Origin: Candidatus Hydrothermarchaeum profundi | GTDB lineage: Archaea > Hydrothermarchaeota > Hydrothermarchaeia > Hydrothermarchaeales > Hydrothermarchaeaceae | Length of the DNA: 64,000 bases | Assembly (NCBI GenBank): GCA_002011125.2 | Contig: MTMF02000009.1 | Location: 1,064,989-1,128,988, forward strand | Direction: 5' to 3' | Part shown: positions 2,650 through 62,781 of the stretch, one piece after another | Layout of the letters: the number at the start of each line of letters is the position of its first letter | Position numbering within the stretch: position 1 is the stretch's first letter | The notes under the pieces: generated by a model | Told to the model about the DNA's origin: nothing | Database searches by the model: none | The model's input: only the letters and a program-made list of their open reading frames with translations | Program-made: the position numbers and the translations under genes

Positions 2650-2689
2650 CCTTTTATTTTGGTAAATAGTACTTATCTTGAAGATTTAA

Positions 2690-4006: not shown

Positions 4007-4078
4007 AAAAAGAAAAATATATAAATATTGAAGAATAATCTTTTAAAAAATCGATTTCATTAGATTGGAGTAGGTCAC

Positions 4079-4713: not shown

Positions 4714-4723
4714 GGCGAATTTT

Positions 4724-14010: not shown

Positions 14011-14096
14011 GCGGGGGTGGTCGAGCTTGGCTAAGGCGCGGGACTCAAGATCCCGTGGACGTAGGTCCATCAAGGGTTCAAATCCCTTCCCCCGCA
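14011..14096 (+). tRNA. tRNA-Leu(CAA)
   Basis: Acceptor stem GCGGGGG/CCCCCGC plus discriminator A; anticodon arm CGGGA-CTCAAGA-TCCCG; long variable arm; T loop GGTTCAAATCC; CCA not encoded. Confidence 0.96.
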
Positions 14097-53300: not shown

Positions 53301-56300
53301 ATAATGTCACAATGAACATATCTAAGGCATACTACGATGACTACGCTATAACTTATGAAAACAGGTTTTACATAATAACTGAACCCGAATTTTCAGGTAT
53401 CTCTGTGAATCCAACCCAAGGAGGTTGGGGCGAAGTATTCTCCTTTACAGTTAATATAACTGATGACGACCTTGATAATGTAACATTATGGTTATATGCC
53501 CGGAGATACGGTACAGCTGAATGGAATAATCTAAACTCCACAAGCATTGTTGGAGCATTGAACGAGACAGTAACTTTGACAGCGAGTCGCTTTGATTCAG
53601 TTACATATAATGCGTGGCAAGGACCTGATAATGAAACTTGGGAGTTTGTATTTAGAGCAAGGGATAATAGCTCTAGGAACAATGATCTTTACAGTTCTAC
53701 AGTAAACTTCACAATAGAACAGGATGATGTAAGGTTTGAGATAGTCTCAGGCGACGGAGAATCGATATGGAGAAATGGTACGGATACTGAAAGACTTGTG
53801 GTAAGAGCAATAGATGCTGACACTAATCAACCATTACCGGCGAGTATGAGCATAAATTTCAGTATAACAGTAAATGGAACTGACTTTGAAACTTCATTCA
53901 AAAACATAACCAACAGCTCGGGATATGCGGTATACGAGTTTAGTCCAACCTGCAGTTATACAACAGGAATACAATATTGGAAAGTAACCTCAGATAATAA
54001 CCAGTATTACAAAAATAGTGAATCGGACAATTATACAATCATACTTTATGGAAATCTATCTTCTACAATAGAACTTCCAGATATATCTGTTCCAGGATAT
54101 AAGGCATATGCTTATCTTAGAGGTACTGATGTACCGATCTCAGGTTTATTAGAGGATGACTGTGGGAATCCTGTTGAAAATGCAACTGTAACATACACCA
54201 TAGAAAAAGGAAATCCCGTAAAAATTGCTCCAGGCGCTTCTGTCGGACTAGGTTACTATAACTATACATGGACAGAGTCAGGAGGCAAACCCTATGGCTA
54301 CTACAATATTACTATGAGTTCTAGCAAAGACTATTACGCTAGCAATACCACAAAGAAAGAAAACGCCTTCTATTTGGCGGATGATCCGTATCTCGGAACC
54401 CCTGCGCTTACAGTAGAGGATGATTATGGATGGGGTGAGGACTTCACATTTTCAGTACCTCTTGAGGATTGGGATGGCGACATTGTTAATGTAACTCTAC
54501 TAAAGAAAAAAGAAGGAGAAAATTGGACGGTAATTGATTCTAAGAATGCTACTACTTCTACGGTGCAATTCATCGAGAGCTTTACTCCAGACGACATGGG
54601 ACTAAACTATTACAAGATAAATGCCACCGATCCATGGGGCTTTTCTACAGAAAGCACCATTAAGAATTTCACGATAATCGAAGATGATATAGCGGTGTAC
54701 ATAAATGAGGGCGGAGGCAAAGACGTAAATAGAAAGACAGGTTCACAGCTCCTAGAGGGCTGGTTTAAGGATATAGATACGGGGCAAGGGGTTCCAGATG
54801 GAGTTGAAGGTAAAATTTGGGTAACCCTTGATGGATCAACTTATACTTTAGAATTTACTTGTAATACAACAACAAAGAATTCTATACCTGGTTACTGTGG
54901 AGTTTACTATACTCCGCCATGCAGCTCTGAGGTGGGTACGCAGTATTGGAAAGTAGGTGTAACTGACAGCAGATACAAATCTGTTAATGCTAGTGATAGC
55001 ATCACAGTGAAAGGACAATTAAACACAACGGTAGTAAGCCCAGATGACGGAATAATCCTAAATCGTGGAACTACAGAAGTCTTACTTAATGCGACAGTAT
55101 GGGATGAATGTGGAAATGAAAAAACTTATGAACAAAATCTTGAGGTAAGATGGTATAATAGTACATCAACAGTAAGTTCTAATTTACTGGTAACAGGCAA
55201 TAATGTGACTTGGCAGGTTCCCGATAATTATGAGTTAGGCCCAGAGACTATATACGCAGATGCAGGTAATCTACCGAACTATAATAACGCCAATACAAAC
55301 TGTGAAGCGTATTGCGGTAATGTATCGGTTGATATTTATGGCTGGAGTCAATTATACTCTATTGCCCCTGTTAATGGTACTATACTACAAGCATGGGAAG
55401 GCAGAGAAGATATCCGGTGTGTTGTGAAAGATCCTGATTTAGAGTGGCCAGGTTGGATCGTAGGTTACCCCGTAGAGTTCTTTAAAGATGGAATTTCCGT
55501 ATGGAATGATACAACAGATGATAATGGGGAAGCTATTTGGGGAAGACTAATCGCATCTGAAGGCTGGTACTTGGCGGAGGAGAGCTATGGTTGGCATAAT
55601 ATAACGTGCAGAATAAAAGACAACGCATCTAAATTTTATAATGTTTCAGTATCTGAGATAAGCTCATTAATATTTGTGAATAGAACCTTAGTTCTTGATG
55701 ATTTTTCTGCAAATCCTGCAACAATATATAGAAACGATTCATTTTCGCCTAATGAAAGCGTGATTTCAGTTACTTTAATTGATTCTGATGCAACTATTGG
55801 TGGAGAAGAGAATGCGACTGTATTCTTCTATAATCACACTATGGACTATATTGGCGAGTGCAAAACTGATAGTAGTGGGACTTGCTCAATCATATTTAAT
55901 CCCTCAGATACGATAGCTCCAGGTATATATGATATATATATGAATGCTACTTCTTCTGATCCTAAGGTTGCTAATTTAAGCATCAGTAAGATTTCTTTAA
56001 CTGTGCTCGGCAAGTTAAATGTTAATATAACATCGCCAGAGCCTAGAACATACACTAAATATAGCAGCATACCTCTAACTGCAATAATTACTTCAGAAAA
56101 TGGAGATCAAATAACAGATGCTTATGTCGCCTGGTATAACTCAAGTGGGGATATAATTGCAGTAGGTAATGGAAGTGAGACGTGGAGTACCGGGAGTTTA
56201 GCGGTTCAAAAAACAGGGGAGCAGGTTATAACAGCAAATGCAAGCAAGGACTATTACGATAGCAATTCTGGGGTTGTGACTATAGTGATTGGCGGAGAGG

Positions 56301-59300
56301 CTAAGGTTGAGTATCTTGCTCCGAAATCAGATACAAATTATCCAGATCCTATTAGCATATCATGTCTAGTAAAAGACGTCACCTATGATACTGGAATTGA
56401 AAACTATACCGTTGACTTTTGGAAATCTTATTCTGGAGAAGAGTACACTTATCTGAGTACAGAGAAGACTAATTCTTCGGGCATAGCGAACTATACCTGG
56501 GTGCCTCCTAAAAAGGGCACAGTCACTTTCAGATGTAATATAACAAGTGAGAGCAACTATACAGTGAATTCCACTAGGGGAGATAATGTATCCTCCTTTA
56601 CTATCACAATTAGGGATATAAAGCCGCCTACAATTTCTAGTGTAGTCATTTATCCCAATCAGAGCTTCGAGGCCTATACGACTGTCAATATTTCAGCAAA
56701 TATCACCGACGATTCAGGTATTGAAAACGCATGGGTACGAATTATTACGCCGAATGAGTCTGTTGTCATAATAGATATGCAAAATGTTTCTTCGATTTAT
56801 TCAGCTCAATATGACCCTCCAGTTGATGGCAGATATAAAGTTGAAATACACGCTGTAGACTTACCGCCTGACAGCAACGAGAATATGGTTTACAGCTATA
56901 TCTACGTATGGGGTAAAGCAAATGCTACGTTAAATAATACACCAATAAGTGTAAATCTATGGAATGTATTCTACAATAAAGGAGAAACATTTGAACTTTC
57001 ATTGAATTTCACAAATTATGGTAATGGCACAGCTTATGCCGTGAATATCACCTATAATGACACAGATCCTGAAGTCGATTTAGAATTCATTCCAGATTCT
57101 TGGGAGTGTGGAAATGTAAACAAGAGCGAAAGCTGTGCTATTAATGTAAATGTTACAATACCCTCTGCGACTACCCAGAGAACTATCATAGTACAAGCAA
57201 ATGCTACTTGGAGGAATCCAGACAGAACCATTAATATCTCGACCGTGACAACTGCAGCGGTTGTTAAAGATAATAGAGTAATAGAATTTGCTGTAATACC
57301 TGATATGCCCTTTATAACTCCCCACGGGACAATTAGCTCAACAAGTATTGTGCTCCTCTCGTCGGGCAATGCTAATGTAGGTAAAACCAATGTCAGTGCT
57401 AGAGACGGAGATGAAATTAATAAACTACATGATTACTGTCCAGATTGTAAAGTTAGAATTGAAAATGAGAAAATCTATTATATCAGCAGCCTGCCATGGG
57501 GGACAAACAAAACAATGCTCCTCACAGTTGAAGTTCCCACCTATCAGCCTCCTGGAACTTATATTACTCACGTCTGGGCAGAACCTGAAAACGCGGCTAG
57601 TATACAGTTCCCATTAACGATAGAGATTCCGGGAAATGCCTCTTGGCAAGTTTCACCCAATGATCTCGGTAATACTACCTCCTTCGTTCCTCTTCCAGGG
57701 CAGTATACCGAGGGTAAGATAGGAGACATAGTTATTACCAATATCGGAAATGTCAGAATCGATTACTCAGCTTCTACTCCAAGCATATCTGATATGAACG
57801 GTACTACGATACAGGCCATATTCACAGATACTGGTACCTCTGAGAACTATGCATATCCCGGAAATTCTATAGTACTGGAAGTAAACTACTCTATCCCATA
57901 TACTGCTGAAATGGGCACATACTGCGATAATATAAGAATAGATGTAACTAACGCTGAGTCAGTACCGCCAGAAGAAGCTGAACCCACATGGATATATATC
58001 CCCTTCTGCTTGGAGGTTACGGAGCCCAAGACTTACTGGAATCACACTCCAGAAGTAATTTCAGCGGAAGTTCTCCATGGTACAAGCGGTTATTTAGCTA
58101 ACGTAACCATAGTCAATACTGGTAATACGCCAGCGATTATCCATGTTTCTACTAATGGCTCAATATCCACTAATATCACTAATATTAGCTTAGAGGTGGG
58201 GGAATCTATATCGGTGCCTCTAAACTACTCAGTAAATTATACTACTCAGCGGATATACGATATCTCCTACCTCATAACGGATAATGAAACAGTTAATATT
58301 ACACGGTATACGATAGTAAATCTAACAGTCCACCCATATTCATTTGAGATTACTTATCCTACAGAAGCGGATAGAGCCGTAAATAAAGTAGCAGGAGAAA
58401 TATTAACAATACTCGTGAACGCTACATATGGAATGCCTATATCTTCAGGAATGAAGTTTACTGTTGAAATATCAAATGAGACGGAAACTATAATTTTCAA
58501 TGATTCCGAAGTCAATTCCAGTTATGATCCAGATACAGGGTTATGGGCCATTAATGTAACAATTCCAGAACTTGGAGATCCAAGTGCACCTGAGAGAGTG
58601 GCGAGCATAAATGTTTCAGCCAACTATACGGATATTGGATTTGTCCTATCAGATTACGAGCAAAACGCGTTAGTTTATAAAGACACAGTTAAGCCTATTT
58701 TATTCGTTTCGGTTACCCCTTGGTTTGGCTTAATAAATGACACAATAAACCTCTCTGTAATGGCTACAGATGCCGGAGGCATTAATAAGATCTCTGGAAA
58801 TGTGACTATTGAAAATGAAACCTATGATCTAAATTTGACATATACCGGTAATTATGAAAACACATATACATACGAAGGGAACTTCAATAATACCCGCCGA
58901 TCCGGCATATATCATGTGAGCATAGTAGCGTGGGATACTTCAAATAACTCGGAAATAATTGAAACAGATTTCGGTATATATTCCCCAATAAGTATAGGAG
59001 GGGTGGTAGAGGGGGCTAATGACACTATTGTAAATGCTAATTTCACTCTCTATGAAGCAGGTTATTACGGAGATTCTAGCAGAATATTATATAATATTAG
59101 TTCAAATGAGTCAGGTTATAACGAGACGATTGCAAACACGACGTATGATGTTGGCATAAGGGTTTATAAGCATGAAGTAATTTTCAAGGGAATAACTGCA
59201 GATATACTTTCAAGAGCGATTAAGGTTGACCGTATCTCCGAGAATATCTCGATTTCTAATCCACCTGCAATAGGGTATGCTGGCCTGGCGATTGAGGCTG

Positions 59301-61864
59301 AATATGATACAAGTGACATTACTATAAAACTGGATTTCTCAGGCGTTGCTTATAGTAATATTAGCAATTTAGCGGTCTATAGATGCTCAAATTGGAGCAT
59401 AGATCTCAGGAAGTGCTATGACTCTGAGTGGACTATGCCAACCGTAACAAAACTAGACGAAGAAAATAAGATTATTGAAGTTTGGACTTCAACTCTCTCA
59501 GCATATGTGGTCGGAGAACCAGATATATCAAGAGATATAACATCACCGGAAATAACCATAACTTCCCCAGCACAAGAAACAACATCGAGTTGCTCAGCAG
59601 ATGTTGATATGAAGGGTAGCATCGAGGAAGACGTTTCTGATCTTAGTTGGGTCGAGTATAGAATTGATGGAGGAAACTGGACGAGAGCTAATATTTCCCT
59701 GGGTACAAGTATGGTGGAAGACCTTAGTTTGACATGCACAAGCAAAAAGAGCTGCGAATTCCAGTTAAATCTCACAGATCTTTCATATGGTGACCACACA
59801 GCTGAGATAAGAGCCAATAATAGCGCGGGACTCCTCTCAGATACAGAGAAGCGTACATGGAGCATTATTTACTGTGGTTCTCCCCCGGCTCCGCCACCAG
59901 CCGGAGGCGGCGGCGGTGGAGGCGGCGGAGTAGCAGCGCCTGTTGTAAATATCACTCCACTAAAAGAAATGTTGAATGAAAGCTTAGAGGAAGTAGCAAA
60001 GGAACCTAAAGTTCCATCATTTAGTGTAGAAACAAATCTTGGCAGCGTAGAGTTGTATCCAGGTGAAGAGAAATGGTATTCAATTTGGATCACTAATCAT
60101 CTCAAGAGGAATCAGTCGGCTAATCTAACTGTAGTTGGCAGAGCAGCTAAGCATATTGAGCTTTACTGGGACGGTATTAAACTCCATACTAAAGATACGA
60201 TAACAATAGATCCTCAATCAACCGAAAACGTTAGAGTGAGAGTTTATGCGTTATCAGCCGAGAAAGAGGGTATCTCTACAGCAGACATAGTGATAAAGAT
60301 AGACGGTAAAACTCACATAGTACCTGTAACGGTGAAGGTAGTTGAGAAGAAAGAGCCGTTGATGGATGTTAAGGTGGAGGCTATTACGAAGGAGCTTTCG
60401 TTGGGTAGTCCTTTGAAGTTTTATGTTTCTCTTTATAATCTTGGTTTTAAGGAGAGGTTTGATGTTCATCTGGTGTATGCGGTTAAGGAGTTGGAGACTG
60501 AGAGGGTTTTGACTAAGGTTGAGGAGGAGATGGCTATTGAGACTTCTCTTTCTTTTGTTAGGGTTATTCCGGCTGAGAACCTTAGCTTGGAGGCCGGTAG
60601 GTATTATATTGAGGCGGCGGCCTTGTATGAGAATAAGTCTGCTTCTGCCGCGGATATCTTCACGGTGTTTAAGCCTTTCTGGACTACAACCAAAAAAATA
60701 GCAATGATAGCACTCTTCCTTATCACAACCGCGGGTGCATCCGGATATAGAGCAAGGAAGTGGTATATTGCTAGAAAGCAAGCAGCTGCTAGATATCTCC
60801 ATGCTACGCAATACAAAGATCTGCCTAAAGGACCCATGTGGATTGGGAAGATAGCTGAGACTGATATAAGAGCAGAATTTGATCCTAATGACTTAAGAAC
60901 TCATATGATTGTTGCAGGCGCTACTGGATCTGGTAAATCAGTAGCAGCCTCCGTAATCGTAGAAGAGTTACTCGAACTAAAGATTCCAGTTGTGGTATTT
61001 GATCCAACGGCCCAATGGACAGGATTTGTCAGGCCCTGTAGGGATGAGAATTTCTTCAAAGTATACTCGAAGTTCGGTATGAGAAGGGAAGATGCGAAAC
61101 CCTATCGGGGCCTAATATTCGAAGTCACTGATCCTAATGTAAGAATAGATTTCAAAAAGTATATGAATCCTGGTGAGATCACGATATTCACGTTAGATAA
61201 GCTAAAGCCTGGCGAGTATGATCAAGCCGTTATGAACATAGTTGATACCATTTTCGACATGGGCTGGGAGGAGTCTACTGAGTTAAAAATGGCTATTGTA
61301 TTTGATGAGATCCATAGACTCCACGAGAAATATGGTGGTAAGGGTGGTTATATCGCCTTAGAAAAAGGAGCAAGAGAATTCAGAAAGTGGGGTATAGGCC
61401 TCATAATGGTTTCTCAAGTACTTGCGGACTTCAAGGAGGAGCTTAAGGGTAATGTATTGACGGAACTACAGCTTCATACCAAGTCGTTGAGCGACGTTGA
61501 GAGAGTAAAAGAGAAATACGGAGAAGAGTACGCCAGTAGGTTAACTAAGCTAGAAGTAGGCGTGGGGATGATGCAGAATCCAAAGTATAATGGTGGAAGG
61601 CCCTTCTTTGTACACATCCGGCCGGTTAAGCACGAAGCCCATAAGTTGCCTGATCGGGATCTCGAAACCTATAAAGAGTTTGATAATCTATTGAGCATGA
61701 TTGAGACTACTATCGAGAACCTCAAGGCAAGCGGAGTAGACACTTTCGATCTCGAGCTAGAATTCAAACTCGCTAGAGATAAATTGAAAGAAGGTAGATT
61801 TAGAATGGCCGAGATATATGCTGAATCGCTTTTAGAGAGTTTAAAAAGGTATGAAAGAAGATGA
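29357..61864 (+). CDS. Giant (10,835 aa) membrane-anchored repeat glycoprotein fused to a cytoplasmic HerA/FtsK/VirB4-like (DUF87-type) ATPase
   Basis: Uninterrupted 32,508-bp ORF with a hydrophobic N-terminal signal, about 24 repeats, a G9 linker and a TM helix near 60695-60750. Walker A GATGSGKS at 60917-60940, Walker B AIVFDEIH and REFRKWGIGLIMVSQ. Confidence 0.92.
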   Translation: MSNSSRERPVLSVWILPFILVLTILASLMANSQTQDANITILNPYEHPRLGGNWTIYFTTTGEGSLSIYDHSFPEEVEFVDLYKKKNSEWKVVPVTINDDLIQAYWAYSQGKVVFKVKTPKKHILEIRYGEQKVYAHNFASLSVNLNAPSRVLRGDIINISGYAMNHNLSSVYINYSLPEGFDIIFGESKKYCGGSPICWNNITINTSRVSLGEHVVKLEACSYDICESNTTKLVIENVKTVVGEPLQGRAIIGLPVEWKQDFNIWNPSLRKVYNYTLPLPLDAFDINAGSIRVIDNVLQEIDGGENLSFSVKYYTSPPLLTSEDKLLLLQDLLPDNSIDIKVYEDGVQLFSASNIDMLKELQLKVPVKAITVFQNSSVAYENVEVNVSVEGVLLKNKTKLEPIRAELSNGSLFWIIPRLENSETFYIISSYNKSQGEARVGEIVRWRLDLGKRIVEYSTPSPKILETEILENGKWSKAINIKSDVLLENVTVNSTIPEVNFTKGKKLKIKPKKSYFKVNENPEFEVEVDTNISLIWTNGTTPLFNESTDVTNETSHSVRFLDTDNNGFSDTIVWTIPYLDEQNYIIEKDSGIITAEVEDSHGVRAGVKPKVINVGGGKYKLEIPSTRAIKPGLYKLVVESNGEREELWFQWGLISINTEKAVYHPDEDVKIIMVVLDKEGHLVSGADVNLIVNPPIGRPTTYSTSDKTIVETQRGIYEAVYRASREGNYTLFASVKAQDVVSSIDSYFTVRDFYEFDILRNIPVTIDPRVGPFNSSIKVISYVGHGTLTLREYLPAVFDVNAGNAIIKEEGDTIILEWKNLTNGSKVVYKFNTPFIWPYLYMIGPVEIIYDNGTYVEARPWMLAVDPSEEICNWYEDTVSWTAFGTTNLGAIEYYNWTLDTPCPGSLDCYIANISVYIKYTDQGTGAGADPGQSYVQIANFTERNPDPSLANYSRYAAYSPDTAGGETVERWECGESTSPNTCSLSLGSGYNASDYYSVKIEVPAKYSAAVSSVKYLWCYNTSNPALVDANVTPARGGWGEIFNFTVNASDPQNSTVNISLWKSYSILDPTWILIDNYSLYPSDPPVIVNFTGRFFKQSDVDSTIYYKFNATDGSNTNETEIRSLIIEKDDIIIQHGSGNGTTVNRSDSLSNYSVNLTTIVFDTDNQTNVSDGIPGKLWITHDASLGYQVGDQEGASTLNGYLRASATDGVFNPDCNYKAGVQKWYMEITDNSYYKTNTSINYSGDNFTITILGDLSISSYNILPSATIEIGNNVTIISDVQDDCGSDIDDASVTFRIVNNTYGYDNTYSADFIPSSDDYRFNLTTNFSTIEGVYNVYINSYKEYHWNGTATTQFRLYYNPLLEDASVSASEIDVGQYLNFTVNVTDTFNDTVSIYLWTKKGIGNWTLENSTTCTDYVFQCTNCSDFVAYCYKQFSGGDAGTWSFKFNATDDKGNTRETDIGSFQVNNVTLVWNHVQGNDSLANRSGTQNTTLVLNITKQSDGSPITNEQVELWVSTEGDIEISSTKVMTNTTDSSGLVYFDFDPSCSINVGVQEWKGVMAGSAGYTNPDSWEDANLYLAVTVNGTLQNSIDEPNGDDNTTAGNIITLQGVIVDDCGNAMNITNGTGYATENIAFNLTNGGFTESCTPITLIGSNVYKCSWNTTGKPSGWYNVTFSADEDYYYGSTVTQYAPNTFFLFTPPVLEDYSVTPTSAGWGEGNFTFRVNVSDYTDYSGLTVNDTVSVHLWENPGSGWTEISPTNYACTGCDDEQFTWSKEYSCTEGGASEVGSIFYKINATDDFDGESQTETLSFTVEKDDAKIYNVTPSWNATINRSSGVTFIVQINDTDRNTPISNINEFGRIYVTIDADLGAWDSPIFSSTNATGYLNRTLTGGETGTWCTGGYKLGQGYWKAEIKDRACYKDNTTVDIPFILYGDLINTIQEPDGTQNYTKGAGSIRMNGTIIDDCSASITGSGTTVIFEISNGAYTDTCVGNPVGSYYICDWTPPQGAPLGWYNVTMTSSKSNYNNGSDTVNNAFFLRSVPRLENPSIQAGAWGQSPFNFTVTLKNDNNVTTYVYLWLYNASSGWNLEDTRICTDSECYSYQANFSRNFSKDEVGSWQYKFNATDISGATNNTLSPSSFEVLKDDVIVSYIAGDGVEVNRSSGSVILRVQINDTIRGNIVVDEGTSCAFWIEKDGVNYASALINTTDSLGYCTYYFTPGNDYGAGEQNWTAGTYNDPYYNNNNLSVAKYLIIYGDLSANISDPGDSNIGDLITIRGRVIDDNSSEVVGANVIFELRREPTDSWEICGVTYNETGSNAGWYNCTWNSTGKTAGSWDVRMKVSKSYHNPNETIEIDLFNLISQPPSGTGLSVTPPVGGWGETFTYNVSVSDPENDNVTCKLWVNTSGSWELKGSQIQTAPYNCSIQVSDYTTLDINSNYSFKFELNDSNNLVNTSLAYGEIEKDDTSLDILVNDEDAIRGQTIVFSGVLTDTDNGNPISGAAINLTKDGEYVPYSNTTNSTGGYVIYYTISSSEAFGGHNFSVIYEGSSSLKGSISSNISVNISPSLTLLDLTTDDNKGWGETWNFKVNVTSDPAAPSVTIWLQYNRSGSWVNINYTECADCTTTTTKIITSNWSRDDSNLTRYYRFYANDSNQNNATTPSGNVNIQKDDIVIQGEGGVGATINRSNSINLSSRVIDLDTGAYEVDINTTSAFSTWITADGENYTEVSEEKNETHFYYTFTPTCGGQYQLGTQKWKMNVSNAAYFKDNESAEYTITILGSLSNILIQPNGSTNYTIGDTIILRGNVSDDCGNAVTGATVSFKLETNGATYLCEGASVSDEGNGWYNCSWDSSGKLNGTWYNVTIIASKTNYWNGSDSIANAFYLSTRPVLEDVLVSPPTGGWGKSPYYYTVNVTDTDGNNVTIRFYLRNETGEWILRNSTSCVNCNDYIVNFSWSYSYTDVGTWFFKFNATDESGSTATTSGEENHTISKDDILVSYLAGDGVEVNRSGNDYVNLSTFITDTERNVNVTDASVKIWVTTDGTIFDNGTTVTPEGNYYVFQFNPPGAPSCNYSAGVQKWKMNITGDPRYLDNTSQEFSVKIYADMDIAILEPNSEDITIGDSITIIGNVTDDCGVPVTDASVFFNITRNGAYVGNCTATHVGGGNYSCSWDSTGKTEGWYNVTMISERSYYYNKTSLKSNAFRLVGAPKLDNPSYSTSSGGNGWGATYNYTITVTDTEEDTVTVYFWIKKAGGTWAYQGNQTCTNCSGYVMSFLKNFTCNDQGTWFFKFNATDQGGNTNTTSESDNYHNVEKDRVSFTHVSGNGTEATTVIPTTFKLYLGDIDKGEAVADGTEVIFNVTYDGTNYFEYGPNLTQGGNVSYSFLPNMSFTSGWQSWTGQHIEDSCYLYNISSIYVVNVTLKYPPYIENGTVSGVTGGVSKGWGETWNFSVWVKDVDDAVTVTLWKTDLSGYVEDSNWENISQQVYTDIGNWQQLNFSPIFTPSDMGTWYYKFNATDEATNTNSTQRSLNSNFTITKEGIIFEYDASWAENNESIPANRSGTQSKELLILVKDINGTPLSNFNVTFQIERKGEGTNTWWDYDVVTNSSGYANLSFDPTCDNASTVGVDERFEVGKQKWRVKVVGLSDYNDSYSDEYNLTIWGDTRIYFDYPLNQTYTLPNRVPFEGRIFDDCGESLPNAEVEFWALGATHYLCGNTSSGDAYEPVPGLYRCRNEGEDGWKTSDKPTGYYNATWNITLSYYYINNSISGRIVPITDNLTLAKSPGWFELTISANAPDLSEADVEPRRDGWGVKRNFSVKVTNQNGDVMNISLWYQPPAQAEILLAYTGNVTSNGSDIIYFRDISFDSSLSGQVMKFKFYASDNDGDSYTGAGDYNASGDATLADNEFYLEKDDVVIEYVSGNETTVSSSGVVGEPLTLRIYDSDRKTYNIAPSATVIFNVTVDGENYTTVNTSTTNDTGYAEGTFTATSPPFPAGVSKQKWVGYIPNSDSYYKYTLSNIYNVTIDINNPPDMTDEKVNGVTEGASEGWGFVFNFSVKVRDDKNATTNISLWVDTANTADYELINYTICDACGSAGWVTINLSAKFTASDIGSASYYFKAVDNTSNENVTSAHTFTIEEDEVTFEVDPNSNGTNIIVNRSANAQPLNLTVRLRDENGSYLGGGISNTLTISKVGVYPGATWDSGRTVITNASGYAVYEFTPTCDNESTSLVDEEYEVGLHSWYIKVDDSESLYQPNQSDYYTFKVMGTLMNTIDEPKGNVTYDAGEIILIQGFIENYCGEPITTDVSNVWYNLTNGPYEYSCTNVTRTGANVYKCEWDSTGAQAGCYNVTMHSSMENYYDNETTKLAGTTFCLETPPSLQYANVSPREDGWGKNFTFSVNASDNEGDNVTVNLSYAIGSKSSAWYQILPSKTFTAGLNQTRLEWNKSYSCSEVGKTLFFKFYAIDTQGFTDETTASSYYIDGSDSFSITKDDVQILYSGGNNSEVNRSGNDTARLVLRVFDVDSNSYVNSTPTNVYFNVTIDGENFTRAYDTSGVSYATTNSTGHVVFDFNATCEHQVGQQKWIGYISGDSCYLNQVSSDYVLTVIGDLTTEINTGRANKSYYQNEDVDLWFEVRDECGSLIPGATLDVLVYYNSTLNYSCSPVTDHNNGTYNCTWQTANTTDYPTGAWKVRVISSKLPNYNNGSDIKTEAILLSSALNSAPELSNAVVEPNGWGGLTNYSVTVFDVDGDDVNVSLYENKSGSWVYIGSEICSTCSSSTQINFSVSHNWTDVGTMFYKFTAFDGTIETELIPASYQILKDNVSFLGVDGEASVNRSGTQTATLNFSVYDITNNSYVADYGKPEANCSVWMTKDYSSYYLSNISVTSNSLCTVEFDPDESYEVGVQYWKGGVYNDKYYADKNTSNRTILIIGDLYNAITTPDGDSYNIGQTVTIRFNVTDDAGKNLTGLTSQNFTISLEHNGNVYSCTDIVEEGNGWYNCTWNSTGAESGNYNITIISSATYYNNGSTIKENAFFIQAAPILENETVDPETKYWGSYFTFNVTLTDDDDTVTVRLWHRRNGTTTWYKINETTCVDCVGAVISFTRLYSSTEIDTWEWKFNATDGVSDVETTTKNLTVTKRNVTITLVYGDGGVVYRNGTDSLSLILQVKDAVDGSVLPISAGGGGFYVTTDYNNWGTRIDAPTNSSYLTTPPGEFDPDCTYLTGNQKWKGVYDGTSKYYSKETQNYTLNIYSSLSNTILEPLNSQPVQKGQSLLIKGYVEDECGGVEGASVTFDPYIGSTSYAALCASPAPEEGGGNYTCNLDTSLIDDADLGYYNITITSSKGAPYNYTTDVETEVNAFKLGFRPELVNSSVSPSSDGWGSNFTFSVRFRDREGDQGNITLWIAYNESGPWYPIVSRSETNSLWTTLTDIESFTKENFTSALNGVVYFKYNVSDSNGFTNETGVKNFALERDNVTISFVEGSGSVNRLGSNTITLKVRVNDTDAGNVPVGASVKGRIYTDVEYNDTTTDNDGYLYYILDPSCEPLYSAGPHTWVGGTFNDTYYDDENSSQSTFNVTGQLYNNLLEPLLGASFNVNDNITIRFYVSTDCSAEGNQTIDNATIELIHNQSGYTSSCSVITEEAPGVYNCTWDTSGKLEGNWSIRINSSKQYFNNASTLWVNHLMLDNNPPNATLANQTVEVVPAQGPWGISYAYRVNISDPEGDNVSCILYANTNGTWVMRGSVTVEGGSGVCTIILPNSTFNKADYYYNYSGNNVKFYFAIDDGQSGEAFNTTIVYSPSFEKDDVVVTYGGLGNDTYLVRNSDNQILRLRINDTDAGIPANNANGTIWITNVSGIWIPIGSNTTDNNGYLSINFTPDCSYSIGKQNWTGGTDGDLYYVNRNTTDNLVITIMGGLSSNAWSLNESHSLDSNFTRGEENITIRANITDECSALVSSANVEFTLSQGSQNYTCNVVEEASQVGYYNCTISTNDTWSAGWYNLTVTSSKSNYQMDSNLIENFLFIETKPKLTEPNVTTSNGSNVGGYSEIFNFTVKLTDEDLDEVTVYFWYKKVGDNWTLLGTEQASGIGVVVYKTLTQKPLGNYLAKFNATDPRGYINETETVNFTIEGDDVNFIALEGNGSSVVRTSGSVNLTVRVTDLDTDPESVVDAFTQGKIWVTTDAELNIWDSGISAQTYPDSDGVLRTLSDEQITFSPDCNYKVGIQKWKAGLTDTGDKYKEQNSSEWLVTITSSLNANITYPINKTFLRGDSILVNGTVGDECTTSVEGANVTFNLTHMSTGDNLTCQAQDDGEGNYSCTISTTGLSDIWLGYYSITMIVEKPHYTSAYDFENRSLFLASAPVIDSATLTLPKGKVSEAKWGDGIYQWDINIIDNDQDNVTVELWKKIGSGNWVKINSTVSVYPARTISFKHYLNCSDIGTNYWKVNVTDIWGYTATTDGTDNFGVDKDDTTAVQVTPDGVEVNRSDTEPGNTLIITYRIWDSSKGDYAEGANGFFNITYDGVNQTPNRYNTSDSNGYVRFYFNPENNFSVGPQTWRGGVINDGCYYDSNVLERTLYINGTLTLNLTQPANGSVFAVNDNITIRLNISSDGSEVPSDAVVTIQLIDKNNNVESCTPVLNEGGENASWFNCTWDTTAHVGGAWDILVNASKSYFNFNSTLFIDWFNLTNTPPSTANINVTPSIGGWGRNFTFTIDVDDTQNDDVTCTLYTNTTGVWIERGNDTVYGGHGTCTVTVSPFLGNGFNYSDVGNDNYFKFRVDDKTEGNVFEVNSSGPIIEKDTIQLIYIQGDNSEVNRSNSQTTTFVLFVNDTDKGIGVQDPNVSVKFNVTTDGSSYNFDGENYTNSSGYVIYYFDPGDIYNIGIQNWTAYVVNDLAYKNAVLGVYTTTILGDLNYQIEEPQGSRILRGNNVTIRLNITDDRSTPQLVPNAAVKIILTSNLTGQSFVCNVNNETGANAGYYNCTFETNSTVPAGAYNITVEASKSYYNNISEDVPYIAGVSSFFLETKPHIENPVLITTTANGSLGDGGWGEDYNFSVYVYDYDMDTLTVKLWINLSTGWTQKGTTLVDGNGTVSFIFNDVDTINKDEVGDRSFYFWVSDSIYNNQTDYQNFTVGKDDVSFTLISGNSTFNRSTPGDYFLNVSIYDSDLGVKMESGITTNFWYTKDGSTFVRSPNEFTDSNGEAKTKITISCGGGFSVGPQYWFNEFSGGAYYKHVNSTIYTYTVVTEPLTAVIETPNNEEPHLRGASDPINISVKVTDDCGGVENASLVINILGPSIKECTNIVNISGGYYNCTVSDTSTYSYGIYNVTSNVTKAFYNGTYVISESAFAIASAPGLPTIWADTPQTPYYTDNSWGETWRFYARVEDADGGDVNVTLWSNKSGAWELVNSTMCYSCYGGDIYFYENNLFTGDDIGKQYFKFNVTDQYNYTTESLDNVTVNPDDLEINIISGFSETVNREGNDTALFVIRIKDKDRTKALGIDVYLGEGRSGMFWVTTSGIENGPVDSGTSNTTESNGYLRLNFDPDSNIHGVGLQYWDGGIIGDPWYTSRNLSQDKGQKYEVTIIGQLKNNITNPTYGTNITVGSLVDINVSIFTDNSTQDYQENTSVVIKVKSSTGSWINCEPVISEGDGKYTCTWDTTGLEGGNWSILVNSSKQYYNDNATIFWNWTYLKNTPPNATGLKVSPSTGGWGENFTFSVNVTDAQNDTVTCTLYTSNDNGATWILRGNDTVIDTYPGPAICSVQVSPYFGNGFNSSDIGKNHTYKFEIKDTTIGNEFNVSPVSGPQIEPDDVTIVYVWNSSDIVNRDTGNIDFILKVYDNDLKNYAEGANITIWITTDGSNYSGNSSLTNSSGDILISFDPSCDYTAGVQYWFGNITDWRFKSANTSIYLLTIIGSLDNPFTQLTTPNVGSEFLRGENISFSGSVYDDCSNIVNDANVSFISTHTSSGNEYLCQATYNNTDQVYKCTRNTSGMEARYYNVTMNISKAYYDDYAITYENRFYIITEPEFSGISVNPTQGGWGEVFSFTVNITDDDLDNVTLWLYARRYGTAEWNNLNSTSIVGALNETVTLTASRFDSVTYNAWQGPDNETWEFVFRARDNSSRNNDLYSSTVNFTIEQDDVRFEIVSGDGESIWRNGTDTERLVVRAIDADTNQPLPASMSINFSITVNGTDFETSFKNITNSSGYAVYEFSPTCSYTTGIQYWKVTSDNNQYYKNSESDNYTIILYGNLSSTIELPDISVPGYKAYAYLRGTDVPISGLLEDDCGNPVENATVTYTIEKGNPVKIAPGASVGLGYYNYTWTESGGKPYGYYNITMSSSKDYYASNTTKKENAFYLADDPYLGTPALTVEDDYGWGEDFTFSVPLEDWDGDIVNVTLLKKKEGENWTVIDSKNATTSTVQFIESFTPDDMGLNYYKINATDPWGFSTESTIKNFTIIEDDIAVYINEGGGKDVNRKTGSQLLEGWFKDIDTGQGVPDGVEGKIWVTLDGSTYTLEFTCNTTTKNSIPGYCGVYYTPPCSSEVGTQYWKVGVTDSRYKSVNASDSITVKGQLNTTVVSPDDGIILNRGTTEVLLNATVWDECGNEKTYEQNLEVRWYNSTSTVSSNLLVTGNNVTWQVPDNYELGPETIYADAGNLPNYNNANTNCEAYCGNVSVDIYGWSQLYSIAPVNGTILQAWEGREDIRCVVKDPDLEWPGWIVGYPVEFFKDGISVWNDTTDDNGEAIWGRLIASEGWYLAEESYGWHNITCRIKDNASKFYNVSVSEISSLIFVNRTLVLDDFSANPATIYRNDSFSPNESVISVTLIDSDATIGGEENATVFFYNHTMDYIGECKTDSSGTCSIIFNPSDTIAPGIYDIYMNATSSDPKVANLSISKISLTVLGKLNVNITSPEPRTYTKYSSIPLTAIITSENGDQITDAYVAWYNSSGDIIAVGNGSETWSTGSLAVQKTGEQVITANASKDYYDSNSGVVTIVIGGEAKVEYLAPKSDTNYPDPISISCLVKDVTYDTGIENYTVDFWKSYSGEEYTYLSTEKTNSSGIANYTWVPPKKGTVTFRCNITSESNYTVNSTRGDNVSSFTITIRDIKPPTISSVVIYPNQSFEAYTTVNISANITDDSGIENAWVRIITPNESVVIIDMQNVSSIYSAQYDPPVDGRYKVEIHAVDLPPDSNENMVYSYIYVWGKANATLNNTPISVNLWNVFYNKGETFELSLNFTNYGNGTAYAVNITYNDTDPEVDLEFIPDSWECGNVNKSESCAINVNVTIPSATTQRTIIVQANATWRNPDRTINISTVTTAAVVKDNRVIEFAVIPDMPFITPHGTISSTSIVLLSSGNANVGKTNVSARDGDEINKLHDYCPDCKVRIENEKIYYISSLPWGTNKTMLLTVEVPTYQPPGTYITHVWAEPENAASIQFPLTIEIPGNASWQVSPNDLGNTTSFVPLPGQYTEGKIGDIVITNIGNVRIDYSASTPSISDMNGTTIQAIFTDTGTSENYAYPGNSIVLEVNYSIPYTAEMGTYCDNIRIDVTNAESVPPEEAEPTWIYIPFCLEVTEPKTYWNHTPEVISAEVLHGTSGYLANVTIVNTGNTPAIIHVSTNGSISTNITNISLEVGESISVPLNYSVNYTTQRIYDISYLITDNETVNITRYTIVNLTVHPYSFEITYPTEADRAVNKVAGEILTILVNATYGMPISSGMKFTVEISNETETIIFNDSEVNSSYDPDTGLWAINVTIPELGDPSAPERVASINVSANYTDIGFVLSDYEQNALVYKDTVKPILFVSVTPWFGLINDTINLSVMATDAGGINKISGNVTIENETYDLNLTYTGNYENTYTYEGNFNNTRRSGIYHVSIVAWDTSNNSEIIETDFGIYSPISIGGVVEGANDTIVNANFTLYEAGYYGDSSRILYNISSNESGYNETIANTTYDVGIRVYKHEVIFKGITADILSRAIKVDRISENISISNPPAIGYAGLAIEAEYDTSDITIKLDFSGVAYSNISNLAVYRCSNWSIDLRKCYDSEWTMPTVTKLDEENKIIEVWTSTLSAYVVGEPDISRDITSPEITITSPAQETTSSCSADVDMKGSIEEDVSDLSWVEYRIDGGNWTRANISLGTSMVEDLSLTCTSKKSCEFQLNLTDLSYGDHTAEIRANNSAGLLSDTEKRTWSIIYCGSPPAPPPAGGGGGGGGGVAAPVVNITPLKEMLNESLEEVAKEPKVPSFSVETNLGSVELYPGEEKWYSIWITNHLKRNQSANLTVVGRAAKHIELYWDGIKLHTKDTITIDPQSTENVRVRVYALSAEKEGISTADIVIKIDGKTHIVPVTVKVVEKKEPLMDVKVEAITKELSLGSPLKFYVSLYNLGFKERFDVHLVYAVKELETERVLTKVEEEMAIETSLSFVRVIPAENLSLEAGRYYIEAAALYENKSASAADIFTVFKPFWTTTKKIAMIALFLITTAGASGYRARKWYIARKQAAARYLHATQYKDLPKGPMWIGKIAETDIRAEFDPNDLRTHMIVAGATGSGKSVAASVIVEELLELKIPVVVFDPTAQWTGFVRPCRDENFFKVYSKFGMRREDAKPYRGLIFEVTDPNVRIDFKKYMNPGEITIFTLDKLKPGEYDQAVMNIVDTIFDMGWEESTELKMAIVFDEIHRLHEKYGGKGGYIALEKGAREFRKWGIGLIMVSQVLADFKEELKGNVLTELQLHTKSLSDVERVKEKYGEEYASRLTKLEVGVGMMQNPKYNGGRPFFVHIRPVKHEAHKLPDRDLETYKEFDNLLSMIETTIENLKASGVDTFDLELEFKLARDKLKEGRFRMAEIYAESLLESLKRYERR
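32430..55400 (+). repeat. About 24 diverged tandem protein repeats (mostly ~330 aa) within the giant ORF
   Basis: GWG-x-x-F-N-F-T-V anchor at about 32468, 33480 (degenerate), 34499, 35519, 36488, 37091, 38057, 39020, 39671, 40769, 41483, 42509, 43538, 44498, 45473, 46457, 47460, 48464, 49433, 50456, 51434, 52436, 53423 and 54428. Confidence 0.88.
60353..60703 (+). repeat. 351-bp exact direct repeat, copy 1 (membrane-proximal Ig-like domain of the giant protein)
   Basis: Identical by eye to 62251-62601 (offset 1,898 bp), GAGCCGTTGATGGATG...AAAAAAATAGCA. Confidence 0.95.
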
Positions 61865-62676
61865 GAGTTTTATTGTTAATTATAATATTATGCACCTTTG
61901 ATAAAGTGAGCGTGGTCTACGGATCTGGTATAAGTGTAGAGACCGATATGGTAGAGCCTGTATTTGCTCCTGGAGAAATTGGGAGGTATTCTGTATGGAT
62001 TACAAATAATCTGAAAGAAAATCAAACTATAACTATTTCTCCTGCTGGTAAGATATCTAACTTGTTGGAAGTTTATTTTGAGGGCAAAGAACTCTCAACT
62101 AGTAATTTTAAGCTTAGTACTGATACGACGGAACATCTTGAGTTAATTGTTAATGCTCCGGAGAATCCAGGGATATATACAGGATATCTTGTTTTATCAT
62201 CTGGATGGGGAACCCAAGCGATACCAATATCAGTAAAGGTTATTGATGATGAGCCGTTGATGGATGTTAAGGTGGAGGCTATTACGAAGGAGCTTTCGTT
62301 GGGTAGTCCTTTGAAGTTTTATGTTTCTCTTTATAATCTTGGTTTTAAGGAGAGGTTTGATGTTCATCTGGTGTATGCGGTTAAGGAGTTGGAGACTGAG
62401 AGGGTTTTGACTAAGGTTGAGGAGGAGATGGCTATTGAGACTTCTCTTTCTTTTGTTAGGGTTATTCCGGCTGAGAACCTTAGCTTGGAGGCCGGTAGGT
62501 ATTATATTGAGGCGGCGGCCTTGTATGAGAATAAGTCTGCTTCTGCCGCGGATATCTTCACGGTGTTTAAGCCTTTCTGGACTACAACCAAAAAAATAGC
62601 AGTTCTACCTATATTCGCTGGGTTAGGTCTGATATGGTATAAGAAAAAAACAGGAAATATTGGGGGGTTGAAATGA
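61861..62676 (+). CDS. Small membrane-anchored two-domain protein, mini-paralog of the giant protein's stalk
   Basis: Signal peptide; domain 1 is similar to the giant's (YSVWITNNLKENQ vs YSIWITNHLKRNQ); domain 2 is identical over 117 aa; TM and short basic tail; ATGA overlap with the giant gene. Confidence 0.88.
   Translation: MRVLLLIIILCTFDKVSVVYGSGISVETDMVEPVFAPGEIGRYSVWITNNLKENQTITISPAGKISNLLEVYFEGKELSTSNFKLSTDTTEHLELIVNAPENPGIYTGYLVLSSGWGTQAIPISVKVIDDEPLMDVKVEAITKELSLGSPLKFYVSLYNLGFKERFDVHLVYAVKELETERVLTKVEEEMAIETSLSFVRVIPAENLSLEAGRYYIEAAALYENKSASAADIFTVFKPFWTTTKKIAVLPIFAGLGLIWYKKKTGNIGGLK
62251..62601 (+). repeat. 351-bp exact direct repeat, copy 2
   Basis: Identical by eye to 60353-60703 and read in the same frame. 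Confidence 0.95.
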
Positions 62677-62781
62677 TAATAAATATTCATGGGCATCCAA
62701 AATATGAGCGGGTATGTATTATAGAGAGGGATAGTTTTATAGAGTATTACATATAATTATTTAAAATTGAGGTTTGCATAG

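What the first reader, a model, noticed from the sequence alone, without database searches (positions are those of the whole stretch)
60353..60685. Extreme G/T wobble skew confined to the duplicated segment
Counted by eye: the first 75 codons of the repeat all end in G or T, and none of the first 111 ends in A. Flanking codons in the same gene often end in A, and the last six repeat codons switch to A/C endings (ACA ACC AAA AAA ATA GCA). The skew begins essentially at the repeat boundary. Inference: a local strand-specific mutation process (C>T and A>G, as expected from deamination of exposed single-stranded DNA) acting during repeated gene conversion. It also argues that the repeat is old and actively homogenised, since an assembly error would not change base composition.
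Basis: partly seen in the sequence, partly recalled or inferred. Interest (0 to 1): 0.75.

Follow-up and report, generated by a model that had tools for sequence, protein, structure and literature searches.

The report
Archaeal repeat with intense G/T skew
An exactly duplicated 351-base gene segment in an archaeal genome has nearly all its free codon positions turned to G or T, a rare repeat-linked skew so far described in bacteria, and here it follows the direction of DNA replication.

Summary
The 351-bp repeat (60353-60703 = 62251-62601) is 100% identical. Its first 75 codons end in G/T and its first 111 have no A ending. The rest of the 10,835-codon gene has no G/T run longer than 13.

It is not a local oddity. 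In this genome 21 of 26 strongly G/T-wobble segments lie in high-identity repeats. Orthologous single-copy domains in relatives are unskewed, with GT3 of 0.44-0.50.

In 14 of 14 loci the G/T-rich strand is the replication leading strand. One lagging-strand cytochrome gene shows the mirror A/C skew. This excludes causes based on codon choice or transcription.

[quoted passage not shown] GRINS were described in bacteria and their mechanism is unknown. This case is archaeal.

Fourfold sites, the stronger loss of A than of C, and low divergence between strains argue against simple deamination. They favour a fixation bias during gene conversion.

I propose that the mismatch endonuclease NucS/EndoMS causes the bias: it cuts G/T-type mismatches but not A/C-type ones. 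The gene is present here, and it co-occurs with such segments across the order. A relative in which it was not found has unskewed repeats. The NucS mechanism is inferred, not shown.
The parts
60353..60703 (+). Repeat copy 1. It encodes 117 codons of an extracellular domain of the giant surface protein, ending just before its membrane anchor.
   Evidence: Exact 351-bp identity with 62251-62601. In frame with ORF 29357..61864. GC skew +0.35 and TA skew +0.21.
62251..62601 (+). Repeat copy 2, inside the downstream 271-aa ORF.
   Evidence: In relative G002 the matching domain of the small gene is only 39% identical to this sequence, while the giant-gene domain is 60% identical. The small-gene copy was therefore overwritten.
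60353..60577 (+). Pure zone: 75 consecutive codons ending in G or T.
60578..60685 (+). Zone free of A endings but with some C endings (codons 76-111; 8 end in C).
60686..60703 (+). Identical but unskewed 3' tail of the repeat (ACA ACC AAA AAA ATA GCA).
   Evidence: Seven of nine repeat pairs in the genome show the same polarity.
29357..61864 (+). Giant ORF of 10,835 aa: a repetitive extracellular protein, then a membrane span, then a HerA/DUF87-type ATPase tail.
   Evidence: Pfam DUF87 at 50.7 bits on residues from 60704-61861. Orthologs aligned.
61861..62676 (+). Small ORF of 271 aa: signal-like start, one diverged Ig-like domain, the repeated domain, then a membrane anchor.
   Evidence: No Pfam family found. 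Ortholog at G002:C106:2587-2916.
60254..60811 (-). Antisense open frame of 185 codons. It is a by-product: without A at wobble positions, no stop codon can form in the codon-aligned antisense frame.
   Evidence: The explanation follows from the genetic code (inference).

Best explanation
The segment is a GRINS-type repeat. Two paralogous domain-coding stretches are kept identical by recurrent gene conversion. Their unconstrained sites have been driven to G or T on the strand that has the leading-strand sequence.

Shown:
- The duplication is real.
- The skew is confined to it.
- The link between repeats and skew holds across the genome.
- The skew is oriented by replication direction, not by gene direction.
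- The skew has a polarity within each repeat: it starts sharply at the 5' edge of the G/T-rich strand and fades towards the 3' edge.
- Relatives' orthologs are unskewed.

Inferred mechanism: the bias acts on which changes are accepted, not on which mutations arise.
1. A 3' single strand of leading-strand sense, for example from a collapsed fork, or a strand annealing to the lagging-strand template, pairs with the other copy.
2. Each difference between the copies then forms a mismatch.
3. NucS/EndoMS cuts G/T, G/G and T/T mismatches but hardly touches A/C, A/A and C/C.
4. Heteroduplexes that would replace G or T by A or C are therefore destroyed. Those that replace A or C by G or T survive.
5. 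Repeated over time, this removes A and C from every free site while the copies stay identical.
6. The part of the tract copied by new synthesis rather than held in heteroduplex, the 3' end, is homogenised without bias.
For: Link between repeats and skew: 21 of 26 segments with at least 36 of 40 G/T wobble letters have a second copy at 88-100% identity. Within these pairs, differences between copies lie only at the edges.

Orthologs: those in G002, G011 and G019 have GT3 of 0.44-0.50.

Replication rule:
- Cumulative G-C is lowest at 490 kb, beside the best Orc1/Cdc6 gene at 482.7 kb, and highest at 1,550 kb.
- In 14 of 14 loci the G/T-rich strand is the leading strand.
- The + strand multiheme cytochrome gene 1631841-1633382 lies on the lagging strand. 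Its 336-bp exact repeat has wobble A .44, C .40, G .10, T .06, with a mirrored gradient.

DNA-level effect: in the non-coding tail inside repeat 1841322-1842004, the first 52 nt hold no A.

Filter rather than transitions: at fourfold sites of the pure zones A is 0, G about 0.27, and T/(G+T) is 0.67-0.75 against a background of 0.69.

Polarity: residual wobble A counted by thirds of the repeat is 12 / 14 / 62 over nine pairs.

No speed-up: amino-acid change in the repeat is 22 of 117, much as in the flanks. X3 differs at 3 of 351 positions in the repeat, against 1.6-3.4% elsewhere.

NucS:
- A full two-domain gene is present.
- Within the order, complex G/T runs were seen in 6 of 8 genomes with a strong NucS hit. 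They were seen in none of the 26 inspected genomes without one (judged by eye).
- G026, with no NucS found and fetched whole, has local repeats up to 100% identical with K3 of 0.44-0.57.

Literature:
- EndoMS specificity (PMC4838380, abstract and passages).
- In vivo, strands annealed to the lagging-strand template that make G-T or G-G mispairs are rejected, while those making C-A, A-A or C-C are accepted (PMC11551744, passages).
- NucS limits recombination between non-identical sequences (PMC8228993, passages).
- NucS is needed for gene conversion in Haloferax (PMC11276520, passages).
Against: - No experiment links NucS to this skew.
- Leading strand and coding strand coincide in 13 of 14 loci. 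The distinction rests on one locus in this genome, plus one A/C-skewed gene in G027 whose replichore is unknown.
- The NucS gene lies on contig C8, not on the main contig.
- Two NucS-positive genomes, G007 and G022, gave no G/T runs.
- Two skewed segments tested in relatives (G019, G027) had no second copy in those fragmented assemblies: 0 of 2.
- In this genome the 2-kb mtmCB operon is skewed but single-copy in the assembly.
- Sorting runs into low-complexity and complex was done by eye, and G023 was not inspected.
- The genomes compared are related to one another, so they are not independent.
- A NucS-positive genome of another lineage, G038 (47% fetched), was uninformative because its normal genes already favour A/C endings.
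- GRINS are reported in bacterial phyla that, as far as I recall, lack NucS (PMC8256042, section 10).
- That paper also reports both skew signs on one strand in Streptomyces (section 11). A strict replication rule does not predict this.
- The model as it stands predicts equal loss of A and C. The stronger loss of A needs an added assumption: moderate cutting of T/C mismatches against weak cutting of A/G.
Confidence: 0.45

Rival explanations
1. A strand-specific mutation process acts in the repeats. The leading-sense strand is exposed as single-stranded DNA during replication or recombination between copies, or is made by error-prone synthesis. It then suffers A>G and C>T changes by deamination or tautomer mispairing. 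Purifying selection removes the changes that alter the protein.
For: The direction matches the mild genome-wide leading-strand G/T excess at fourfold sites: K4 is 0.54 in leading-strand genes and 0.48 on the coding strand of lagging-strand genes. The skew tracks the replication strand. Polarised amino-acid changes in the repeat give A>G plus C>T 5.0 against 0 for the reverse, of 22 changes. PMC8256042 section 11 names lagging-strand deamination and tautomerism as candidates. The organism's relatives carry names from hydrothermal settings, where deamination would be faster (inference).
Against: At fourfold sites transitions alone predict G near 0.48, but about 0.27 is observed, unless G and T later re-equilibrated. 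A is lost more fully than C, although cytosine deaminates much faster (recalled). An EndoV gene for hypoxanthine repair is present at 223 bits. The repeat is not more divergent between strains, and its protein does not evolve faster. The idea gives no reason why exposure should be confined to repeats, nor why repeats in G026 lack the skew.
Confidence: 0.3
2. The skew comes first. A stretch that happens to acquire a biased composition has lower sequence complexity and recombines more readily, so it spreads onto its paralogs. This is the GRINS authors' second hypothesis. The repeat would be a consequence of the skew rather than its cause.
For: Skewed single-copy stretches exist: the mtmCB operon here and segments in G019 and G027. 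PMC8256042 section 11 reports skewed regions present in only one copy.
Against: The skew starts at the first repeated codon and is absent from the adjoining homologous domain. Orthologs of the same domain in three relatives are unskewed. The idea explains neither where the skew comes from, nor its replication orientation, nor its polarity inside the repeat.
Confidence: 0.12
3. Selection acts on the message or on translation: a codon preference, an mRNA property, or a real antisense gene kept open by avoiding A at wobble positions.
For: A 185-codon antisense frame is open across the repeat. The residual C-ending codons (AAC, ATC, TTC, GCC, ACC) are of the kind often preferred in translation (recalled).
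Against: The lagging-strand gene shows the complementary A/C wobble skew. So does a gene in G027. The skew continues into non-coding DNA. Orthologs are unskewed.
Confidence: 0.03
4. Foreign origin or artefact: the segment was imported from a donor with a different codon usage, or was created by assembly or polishing.
For: None specific. The 100% identity could in principle be sharpened by polishing.
Against: The domain is orthologous, in the same position, in three relatives. A 351-nt unitig sits at twice the flanking depth, and the same sequence occurs in runs of three studies. The skew follows the host's replichores at 14 loci.
Confidence: 0.02

Closest known systems
[quoted passage not shown] 2021, PMC8256042; I read the abstract and sections 5, 6, 10 and 11)
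   Same: Duplicated coding regions of very high identity. Intense and positively correlated GC and TA skews that are strongest at third codon positions. Abrupt edges. A link to gene conversion. The encoded proteins remain functional. Occasional skewed single copies.
   Different: Described in bacteria, above all in Streptomyces polyketide synthase genes. The main text does not contain the word archaea. This example is 351 bp, under the paper's 500-bp cut-off, and lies in a surface-protein gene. In this genome the sign of the skew follows the replication strand at 14 of 14 loci and has a fixed polarity within each repeat. The paper instead reports both signs on one strand, and it leaves the mechanism open.
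GC-biased gene conversion
   Same: A conversion-linked fixation bias that reshapes neutral sites in sequences that recombine or are homogenised, without raising the mutation rate.
   Different: That bias favours G and C on both strands alike. Here T is kept and C is lost. The favoured set is G plus T on one strand, so the bias is strand-asymmetric.
Replication-associated strand asymmetry (GC and TA skew of leading strands)
   Same: Same direction: G and T are in excess on the leading strand, as in this genome's background.
   Different: The size differs. The G/T share at wobble sites is about 0.9 in the repeats, against 0.48-0.54 at fourfold sites of ordinary genes. The strong skew is also confined to repeats.
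NucS/EndoMS non-canonical mismatch repair and its barrier to recombination between non-identical sequences
   Same: Its mismatch preference (G/T, G/G and T/T cut; A/C, A/A and C/C spared) divides the bases exactly as the skew does. It acts at the replication clamp. The gene is present in this genome.
   Different: No published work seen in my searches links it to a compositional bias in repeats. The link is my inference.
Repeat-induced point mutation in fungi
   Same: It targets duplicated DNA, and linked copies more than dispersed ones (recalled).
   Different: It makes copies diverge and destroys reading frames. Here the copies stay identical and open.
Diversity-generating retroelements
   Same: A pair of near-identical repeats with adenine-specific changes (recalled).
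   Different: They need a reverse transcriptase, and their two repeats differ at adenine positions. Here there is no RVT_1 hit in the genome and the copies are identical.

Membership tests
GRINS (operational definition in PMC8256042, section 5) | More than 80% DNA identity to another region nearby or in the same genome | tested here: met
   100% over 351 bp.
GRINS (operational definition in PMC8256042, section 5) | Mean absolute GC skew and TA skew both above 0.15 | tested here: met
   GC skew +0.35 and TA skew +0.21 over the repeat. I computed these over the whole repeat, not in the paper's 150-nt sliding windows.
GRINS (operational definition in PMC8256042, section 5) | Length above 500 bp | tested here: not met
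   351 bp. Three other repeat pairs of this genome meet all three criteria: 939306 (1362 bp), 1823898 (983 bp) and 1841322 (683 bp).
GRINS (operational definition in PMC8256042, section 5) | Skews positively correlated and strongest at third codon positions | tested here: met
   The G/T share is 0.61 at codon position 1, 0.42 at position 2 and 0.88 at position 3.
Concerted evolution by gene conversion between paralogous segments | Paralogs within the genome are more alike than each is to its ortholog, while the orthologs of both copies exist and are diverged | tested here: met
   100% between the copies. In G002 the giant-gene domain is 60% identical and the small-gene domain 39% identical to it.
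GC-biased gene conversion | The shift is from A/T to G/C irrespective of strand | tested here: not met
   Wobble T rises (0.45 against 0.38) and C falls (0.08 against 0.18). The lagging-strand gene shows the complement.
Diversity-generating retroelement | A reverse transcriptase gene, and template and variable repeats that differ at adenines | tested here: not met
   No RVT_1 match in the genome, which is 97.65% complete. The copies are identical.
NucS/EndoMS-dependent process | An intact NucS gene in the genome | tested here: met
   248-aa ORF with NucS_N at 86 bits and NucS_C at 80.8 bits. PDB 2vld at E 2.7e-41. It lies on contig C8.
NucS/EndoMS-dependent process | The bias disappears without NucS | tested here: inconclusive
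   One NucS-negative relative, G026, has unskewed repeats, and NucS and the skew co-occur across the order. This is correlation among related genomes only. No genetic test is possible with these tools.

The most novel reading that the evidence does not exclude
GRINS-type skews are the footprint of a so far undescribed evolutionary force, keto-biased gene conversion. Mismatch surveillance that sees G/T-type but not A/C-type mismatches (NucS/EndoMS, and perhaps more weakly MutS) makes ectopic heteroduplex acceptance one-directional on the leading-sense strand. If so, any sequence that is repeatedly homogenised, in archaea as in actinobacteria, is recoded towards G and T. This would explain the unexplained origin of GRINS. 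It would also give a sequence-only readout of replication direction and of conversion history.
Probability: 0.35. Interest if true: 0.85.

Novelty: new member of a known kind. Interest (0 to 1): 0.66.

Why it matters
GRINS were reported in 2021 as an unexplained way in which bacteria recode and shuffle polyketide synthase genes. Their cause is still given as unknown in the paper I read. None of the later papers listed by my search (listing only) is titled as resolving it.

This archaeal genome is a clean case. It has one large contig with a clear origin and terminus, about ten independent repeat pairs, and relatives with and without the candidate enzyme.

It adds three constraints that any mechanism must meet:
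- The G/T-rich strand follows replication direction, not gene direction.
- The skew starts sharply at the 5' edge of that strand and fades towards the 3' edge.
- The process removes A and C by transversions as well as transitions, without faster divergence.

It also yields a concrete hypothesis that can be tested with a gene knockout. If the hypothesis holds, the composition of repeats becomes evidence of repair biochemistry. Codon-usage outliers in repeated genes should then not be read as foreign DNA or as selection.

Tried and rejected
- Codon selection, transcription-coupled mutation and an antisense gene. Rejected because the lagging-strand cytochrome gene carries the complementary skew and the skew runs into non-coding DNA.
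- Foreign origin. Rejected because orthologs sit in the same position in relatives.
- Assembly artefact. Rejected by the 351-nt unitig at double depth.
- DGR. Rejected: no reverse transcriptase.
- Polarising synonymous changes against orthologs. Not possible, because the closest relatives are only about 60% identical in protein. Only amino-acid changes could be polarised, and they gave small numbers.
- Run X2's contigs do not cover 62281-62715, and X3's do not cover 61848-62596. I draw nothing from these gaps.
- X3's contig crosses copy 1 unbroken, which might mean that strain has no exact second copy. This is not established.
- Pair 1475556/1858437 (100%, 476 bp, on opposite replichores) has 49 A-free codons at its start but many C endings. 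I left it as ambiguous.
- The TFB paralog pair 494316/557711 (94%, same replichore) is unskewed. I read it as a diverged pair that is no longer homogenised.
- G038, a NucS-positive genome of another lineage, could not serve as a test. Its ordinary genes already reach 0.90-0.95 A/C endings in 100-codon windows.
- Literature searches for a described keto- or strand-biased gene conversion found nothing. GRINS surfaced only in the search.
They may bear on whether archaea or NucS were examined there.

Full report
WHAT IS THERE. The window encodes a giant ORF (29357..61864, 10,835 aa) followed by a 271-aa ORF (61861..62676). An exact direct repeat of 351 bp lies at 60353-60703 and 62251-62601. Identity stops abruptly on both sides; the repeat finder listed only its first 300 nt. 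The repeat starts in frame in both genes. It encodes the last extracellular domain before a membrane span. In the giant gene a HerA/DUF87-type ATPase tail follows (Pfam DUF87, 50.7 bits). The repeated domain itself matches no Pfam family, and the domain before it weakly matches an Ig-like fold. The genome holds only these two copies.

Third letters of the 117 repeat codons are T 53, G 50, C 9 and A 5. The first 75 are all G or T, and the first A is at codon 112. The rest of the giant gene has A .287, C .179, G .150, T .383 at third positions. Its longest G/T run is 13 and its longest A-free run is 30. In all open frames of 100 codons or more in the 2.19-Mb genome (830,176 codons), the two copies give the two longest G/T runs, 80 and 75.

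The duplicate is real. In Logan contigs of run X1, which may be the source sample, a unitig of exactly 351 nt has depth 176 against 88-91 in the flanks. Run X2, from another study, shows no difference. Run X3, from a third study and about 98% alike, carries the same skewed sequence.

IT IS A GENOME-WIDE CLASS. Self-comparison found 24 repeat pairs of at least 100 bp and at least 85% identity. The near-identical local pairs are G/T-rich on one strand:
- 670119/672015
- 939306/940797 (1362 bp)
- 1028037/1028617
- the window's pair
- 1565947 (tandem)
- 1632061/1632472
- 1823898/1824888 (983 bp)
- 1841322/1842961 (683 bp)
- the inverted pair 1531971/1741783

In these pairs wobble A is 0-0.05 in most and up to 0.16 in the weaker ones (670119/672015, 1531971/1741783, the 1565947 tandem), against 0.14-0.33 in the rest of the same genes. 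Looking from the other side, 26 segments have at least 36 of 40 G/T wobble letters, and 21 of them have a second copy at 88-100% identity. The five exceptions all lie in one 2-kb operon (see below). Differences between the copies of "99%" pairs sit only at the edges, and the interiors are identical.

Orthologs of the window's domain in G002, G011 and G019 are 56-60% identical in protein. Their GT3 is 0.44-0.50 (the G019 value is from copies in C115, because I read locus L004 on the wrong strand). In G002 both the giant-gene domain and the small-gene domain exist, but they are diverged: 60% and 39% identical to the window's sequence. So in this lineage the small gene's domain was overwritten by the giant gene's.

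WHICH STRAND. Cumulative G-C on the main contig is lowest at 490 kb and highest at 1,550 kb. The best Orc1/Cdc6 gene (114.7 bits) lies at 482.7 kb. I take the G-rich strand as the leading strand, as is usual. On that basis the G/T-rich strand of all 14 skewed loci is the leading strand.

In 13 of the 14 loci that strand is also the coding strand. The fourteenth separates the two. The + strand gene 1631841-1633382 is a multiheme cytochrome with CxxCH motifs, and it lies where the - strand leads. Its exact 336-bp internal repeat has wobble A .44, C .40, G .10, T .06. A gene in relative G027 likewise has a 64-codon A/C run.

The non-coding tail inside repeat 1841322-1842004 has no A in its first 52 nt. 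Its G/T share is 0.71, against 0.51-0.53 in the flanks. The process therefore acts on DNA strands, not on codons or transcripts.

POLARITY. Read 5' to 3' along the G/T-rich strand, the skew starts at the first repeated base. A stays absent while some C appears. A and C both return shortly before the 3' edge, where the copies are still identical. Residual wobble A counted by thirds is 12 / 14 / 62 over nine pairs. The last third dominates in seven of them; the other two are tandem arrays. In the lagging-strand gene the gradient is mirrored with respect to the gene.

MUTATION OR FILTER.
- Fourfold sites. In leading-strand genes the background is A .307, C .153, G .169, T .371. If only A>G and C>T occurred, G should reach about 0.48. 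In the pure zones of five repeats (47, 29, 85, 148 and 153 sites) G is 0.22-0.29. T/(G+T) is 0.67-0.75, equal to the background value of 0.69. The lagging-strand gene gives the complement. A and C therefore seem to be filtered out by transversions as well as transitions. The alternative is that G and T re-equilibrated over a long time.
- A against C. A is removed more fully than C: 0 of 111 against 8 of 111 in the window.
- Protein rate. Lineage-specific amino-acid changes are 22 of 117 in the repeat and 76 in the flanks, which I estimate at roughly 480 aligned positions.
- Strain divergence. X3 differs at 3 of 351 positions in the repeat. It differs at 5 of 148 positions upstream, at 2 of 70 downstream, and at 1.6-2.6% in other pieces.
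- Direction of amino-acid changes. The repeat gives A>G plus C>T 5.0 against 0 for the reverse. This is suggestive but small, and the flanks lean the same way (12.7 against 5.0).

THE KNOWN KIND. [quoted passage not shown] GRINS are duplicated regions of more than 500 bp and more than 80% identity. They have intense, correlated GC and TA skews above 0.15 that are strongest at third positions. They have abrupt edges, are tied to gene conversion, and are commonest in Streptomyces polyketide synthase genes. Their mechanism is unknown.

The window's repeat meets the identity and skew criteria (+0.35 and +0.21) but not the length cut-off. Three other pairs in this genome meet all criteria. The paper's main text does not contain the words archaea, mismatch or NucS. 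It also states that both signs of skew occur on one strand, which differs from the strict replication rule seen here. The closest named relative of this genome is titled Candidatus Hydrothermarchaeaceae archaeon.

PROPOSED MECHANISM (inference). EndoMS/NucS cuts G/T, G/G and T/T mismatches well, T/C moderately, and A/G, A/A, A/C and C/C poorly (PMC4838380, abstract and passages). In Mycobacterium smegmatis, oligonucleotides annealing to the lagging-strand template are incorporated when they make C-C, A-A, C-A or G-A mispairs. They are not incorporated when they make G-T or G-G mispairs (PMC11551744, passages). Loss of NucS raises recombination between 90%-identical sequences tenfold (PMC8228993, passages). 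A nucS deletion impairs gene conversion in Haloferax volcanii (PMC11276520, passages).

Suppose the strand exchanged between repeat copies has a fixed sense relative to the fork. It could be the 3' tail of a collapsed fork, which has leading-strand sense. Or it could be a strand annealing to the lagging-strand template. Then every difference in which the resident leading-sense base is A or C and the other copy has G or T gives an uncut mismatch. The reverse difference gives a cut one. The outcome is a one-way replacement of A and C by G and T on the leading-sense strand, including transversions, with no rise in mutation rate and only where a second copy exists. If the 3' part of a tract is copied by synthesis rather than held in heteroduplex, it is homogenised without bias, which would give the observed polarity. 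Moderate cutting of T/C against weak cutting of A/G would favour A>C over C>A, in line with A being rarer than C.

EVIDENCE BEARING ON NucS.
- The gene. The genome has a full two-domain NucS (248 aa; NucS_N 86 bits, NucS_C 80.8 bits; PDB 2vld at E 2.7e-41 and 5gke at E 4.2e-40) on contig C8. It has only a weak MutS_V match of 43.9 bits.
- Across the order. Among the 35 genomes of the order, eight have a strong NucS hit (E below 1e-20): G000, G007, G022, G015, G019, G025, G027 and G029. Runs of 40-50 codons with G/T at every third base, in sequence that is not low-complexity, were seen in six of these eight; G007 and G022 had none. Of the 27 genomes without a strong hit, ten gave runs. The nine I inspected were microsatellites, Gly-Tyr repeats or the antisense of Lys/Ala/Glu-rich tracts. 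G023 was not inspected. This sorting was done by eye, and the genomes are related to one another.
- A negative control. G026 (no NucS found; 1.99 Mb in 15 contigs; fetched whole) has 13 repeat pairs. These include a 100% 564-bp pair, a 97.5% 815-bp pair and a 96.5% 1296-bp multiheme cytochrome pair. All have K3 of 0.44-0.57. Only two low-complexity frames reach 36 of 40.
- Against the link. Skewed segments of G019 (the signalling domain of a chemoreceptor) and of G027 had no second copy in those fragmented assemblies, 0 of 2. A NucS-positive genome of another lineage, G038, was uninformative because its normal genes already favour A/C endings. GRINS are also reported in phyla that, as far as I recall, lack NucS.

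VERDICT. It is an archaeal member of a published but unexplained class. Its deamination mechanism is not the best fit. The replication rule, the polarity and the NucS hypothesis are the new content. The NucS hypothesis is unproven. I give it about 0.45, with a mutational process as the main rival at about 0.3.

Noticed in passing
G000 C9:1885101-1887163 (- strand; outside the window): An operon of a corrinoid protein and a methylamine methyltransferase whose reading frame continues through an in-frame TAG, as in pyrrolysine-containing MtmB (recalled). Its wobble positions are almost free of A over about 2 kb, yet the assembly holds only one copy. It may be a collapsed duplicate.
   Followed up: partly
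window 29357-61864: A 10,835-aa ORF rich in N-x-S/T motifs and repeated modules. It ends in a membrane span and a cytoplasmic HerA/DUF87-type ATPase. Similar ATPase tails (42-78% identity) occur in records titled Aenigmatarchaeota, Nanohalarchaeota, Heimdallarchaeota and others.
   Followed up: partly
window 59885-59925: A run of nine to ten glycine codons (GGAGGCGGC...) links two parts of the giant protein. It is conserved as a poly-Gly stretch in the three orthologs aligned.
   Followed up: no
window 14011-14096: A tRNA gene, the only Rfam match in the window at gathering threshold.
   Followed up: no
G000 C9:494316-495241 and 557711-558636: Two TFB-like (transcription factor B) paralogs, 94% identical over 930 bp, on the same replichore and without skew. 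They are a useful contrast: a diverged pair that is apparently no longer homogenised.
   Followed up: partly
G000 contig C18 (37 kb), e.g. 2530-6552: Several ORFs with about 80% A/C endings at wobble positions and no repeats. This may be a separate replicon or a foreign element with its own strand bias.
   Followed up: no
G038 C1:1367561-1369216 and 1398565-1400337: Two different genes share an N-terminal region of about 970 nt, identical and containing an internal tandem duplication. Its A/C wobble richness ends abruptly at the repeat's end. This looks like the same phenomenon, but it cannot be told apart from that genome's normal codon bias.
   Followed up: partly
G019:C48:6235-6403 (locus L010): A 57-codon G/T wobble run sits exactly on the conserved signalling domain of a methyl-accepting chemotaxis protein, a domain shared by many paralogs. 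No second copy is present in the fragmented assembly.
   Followed up: partly
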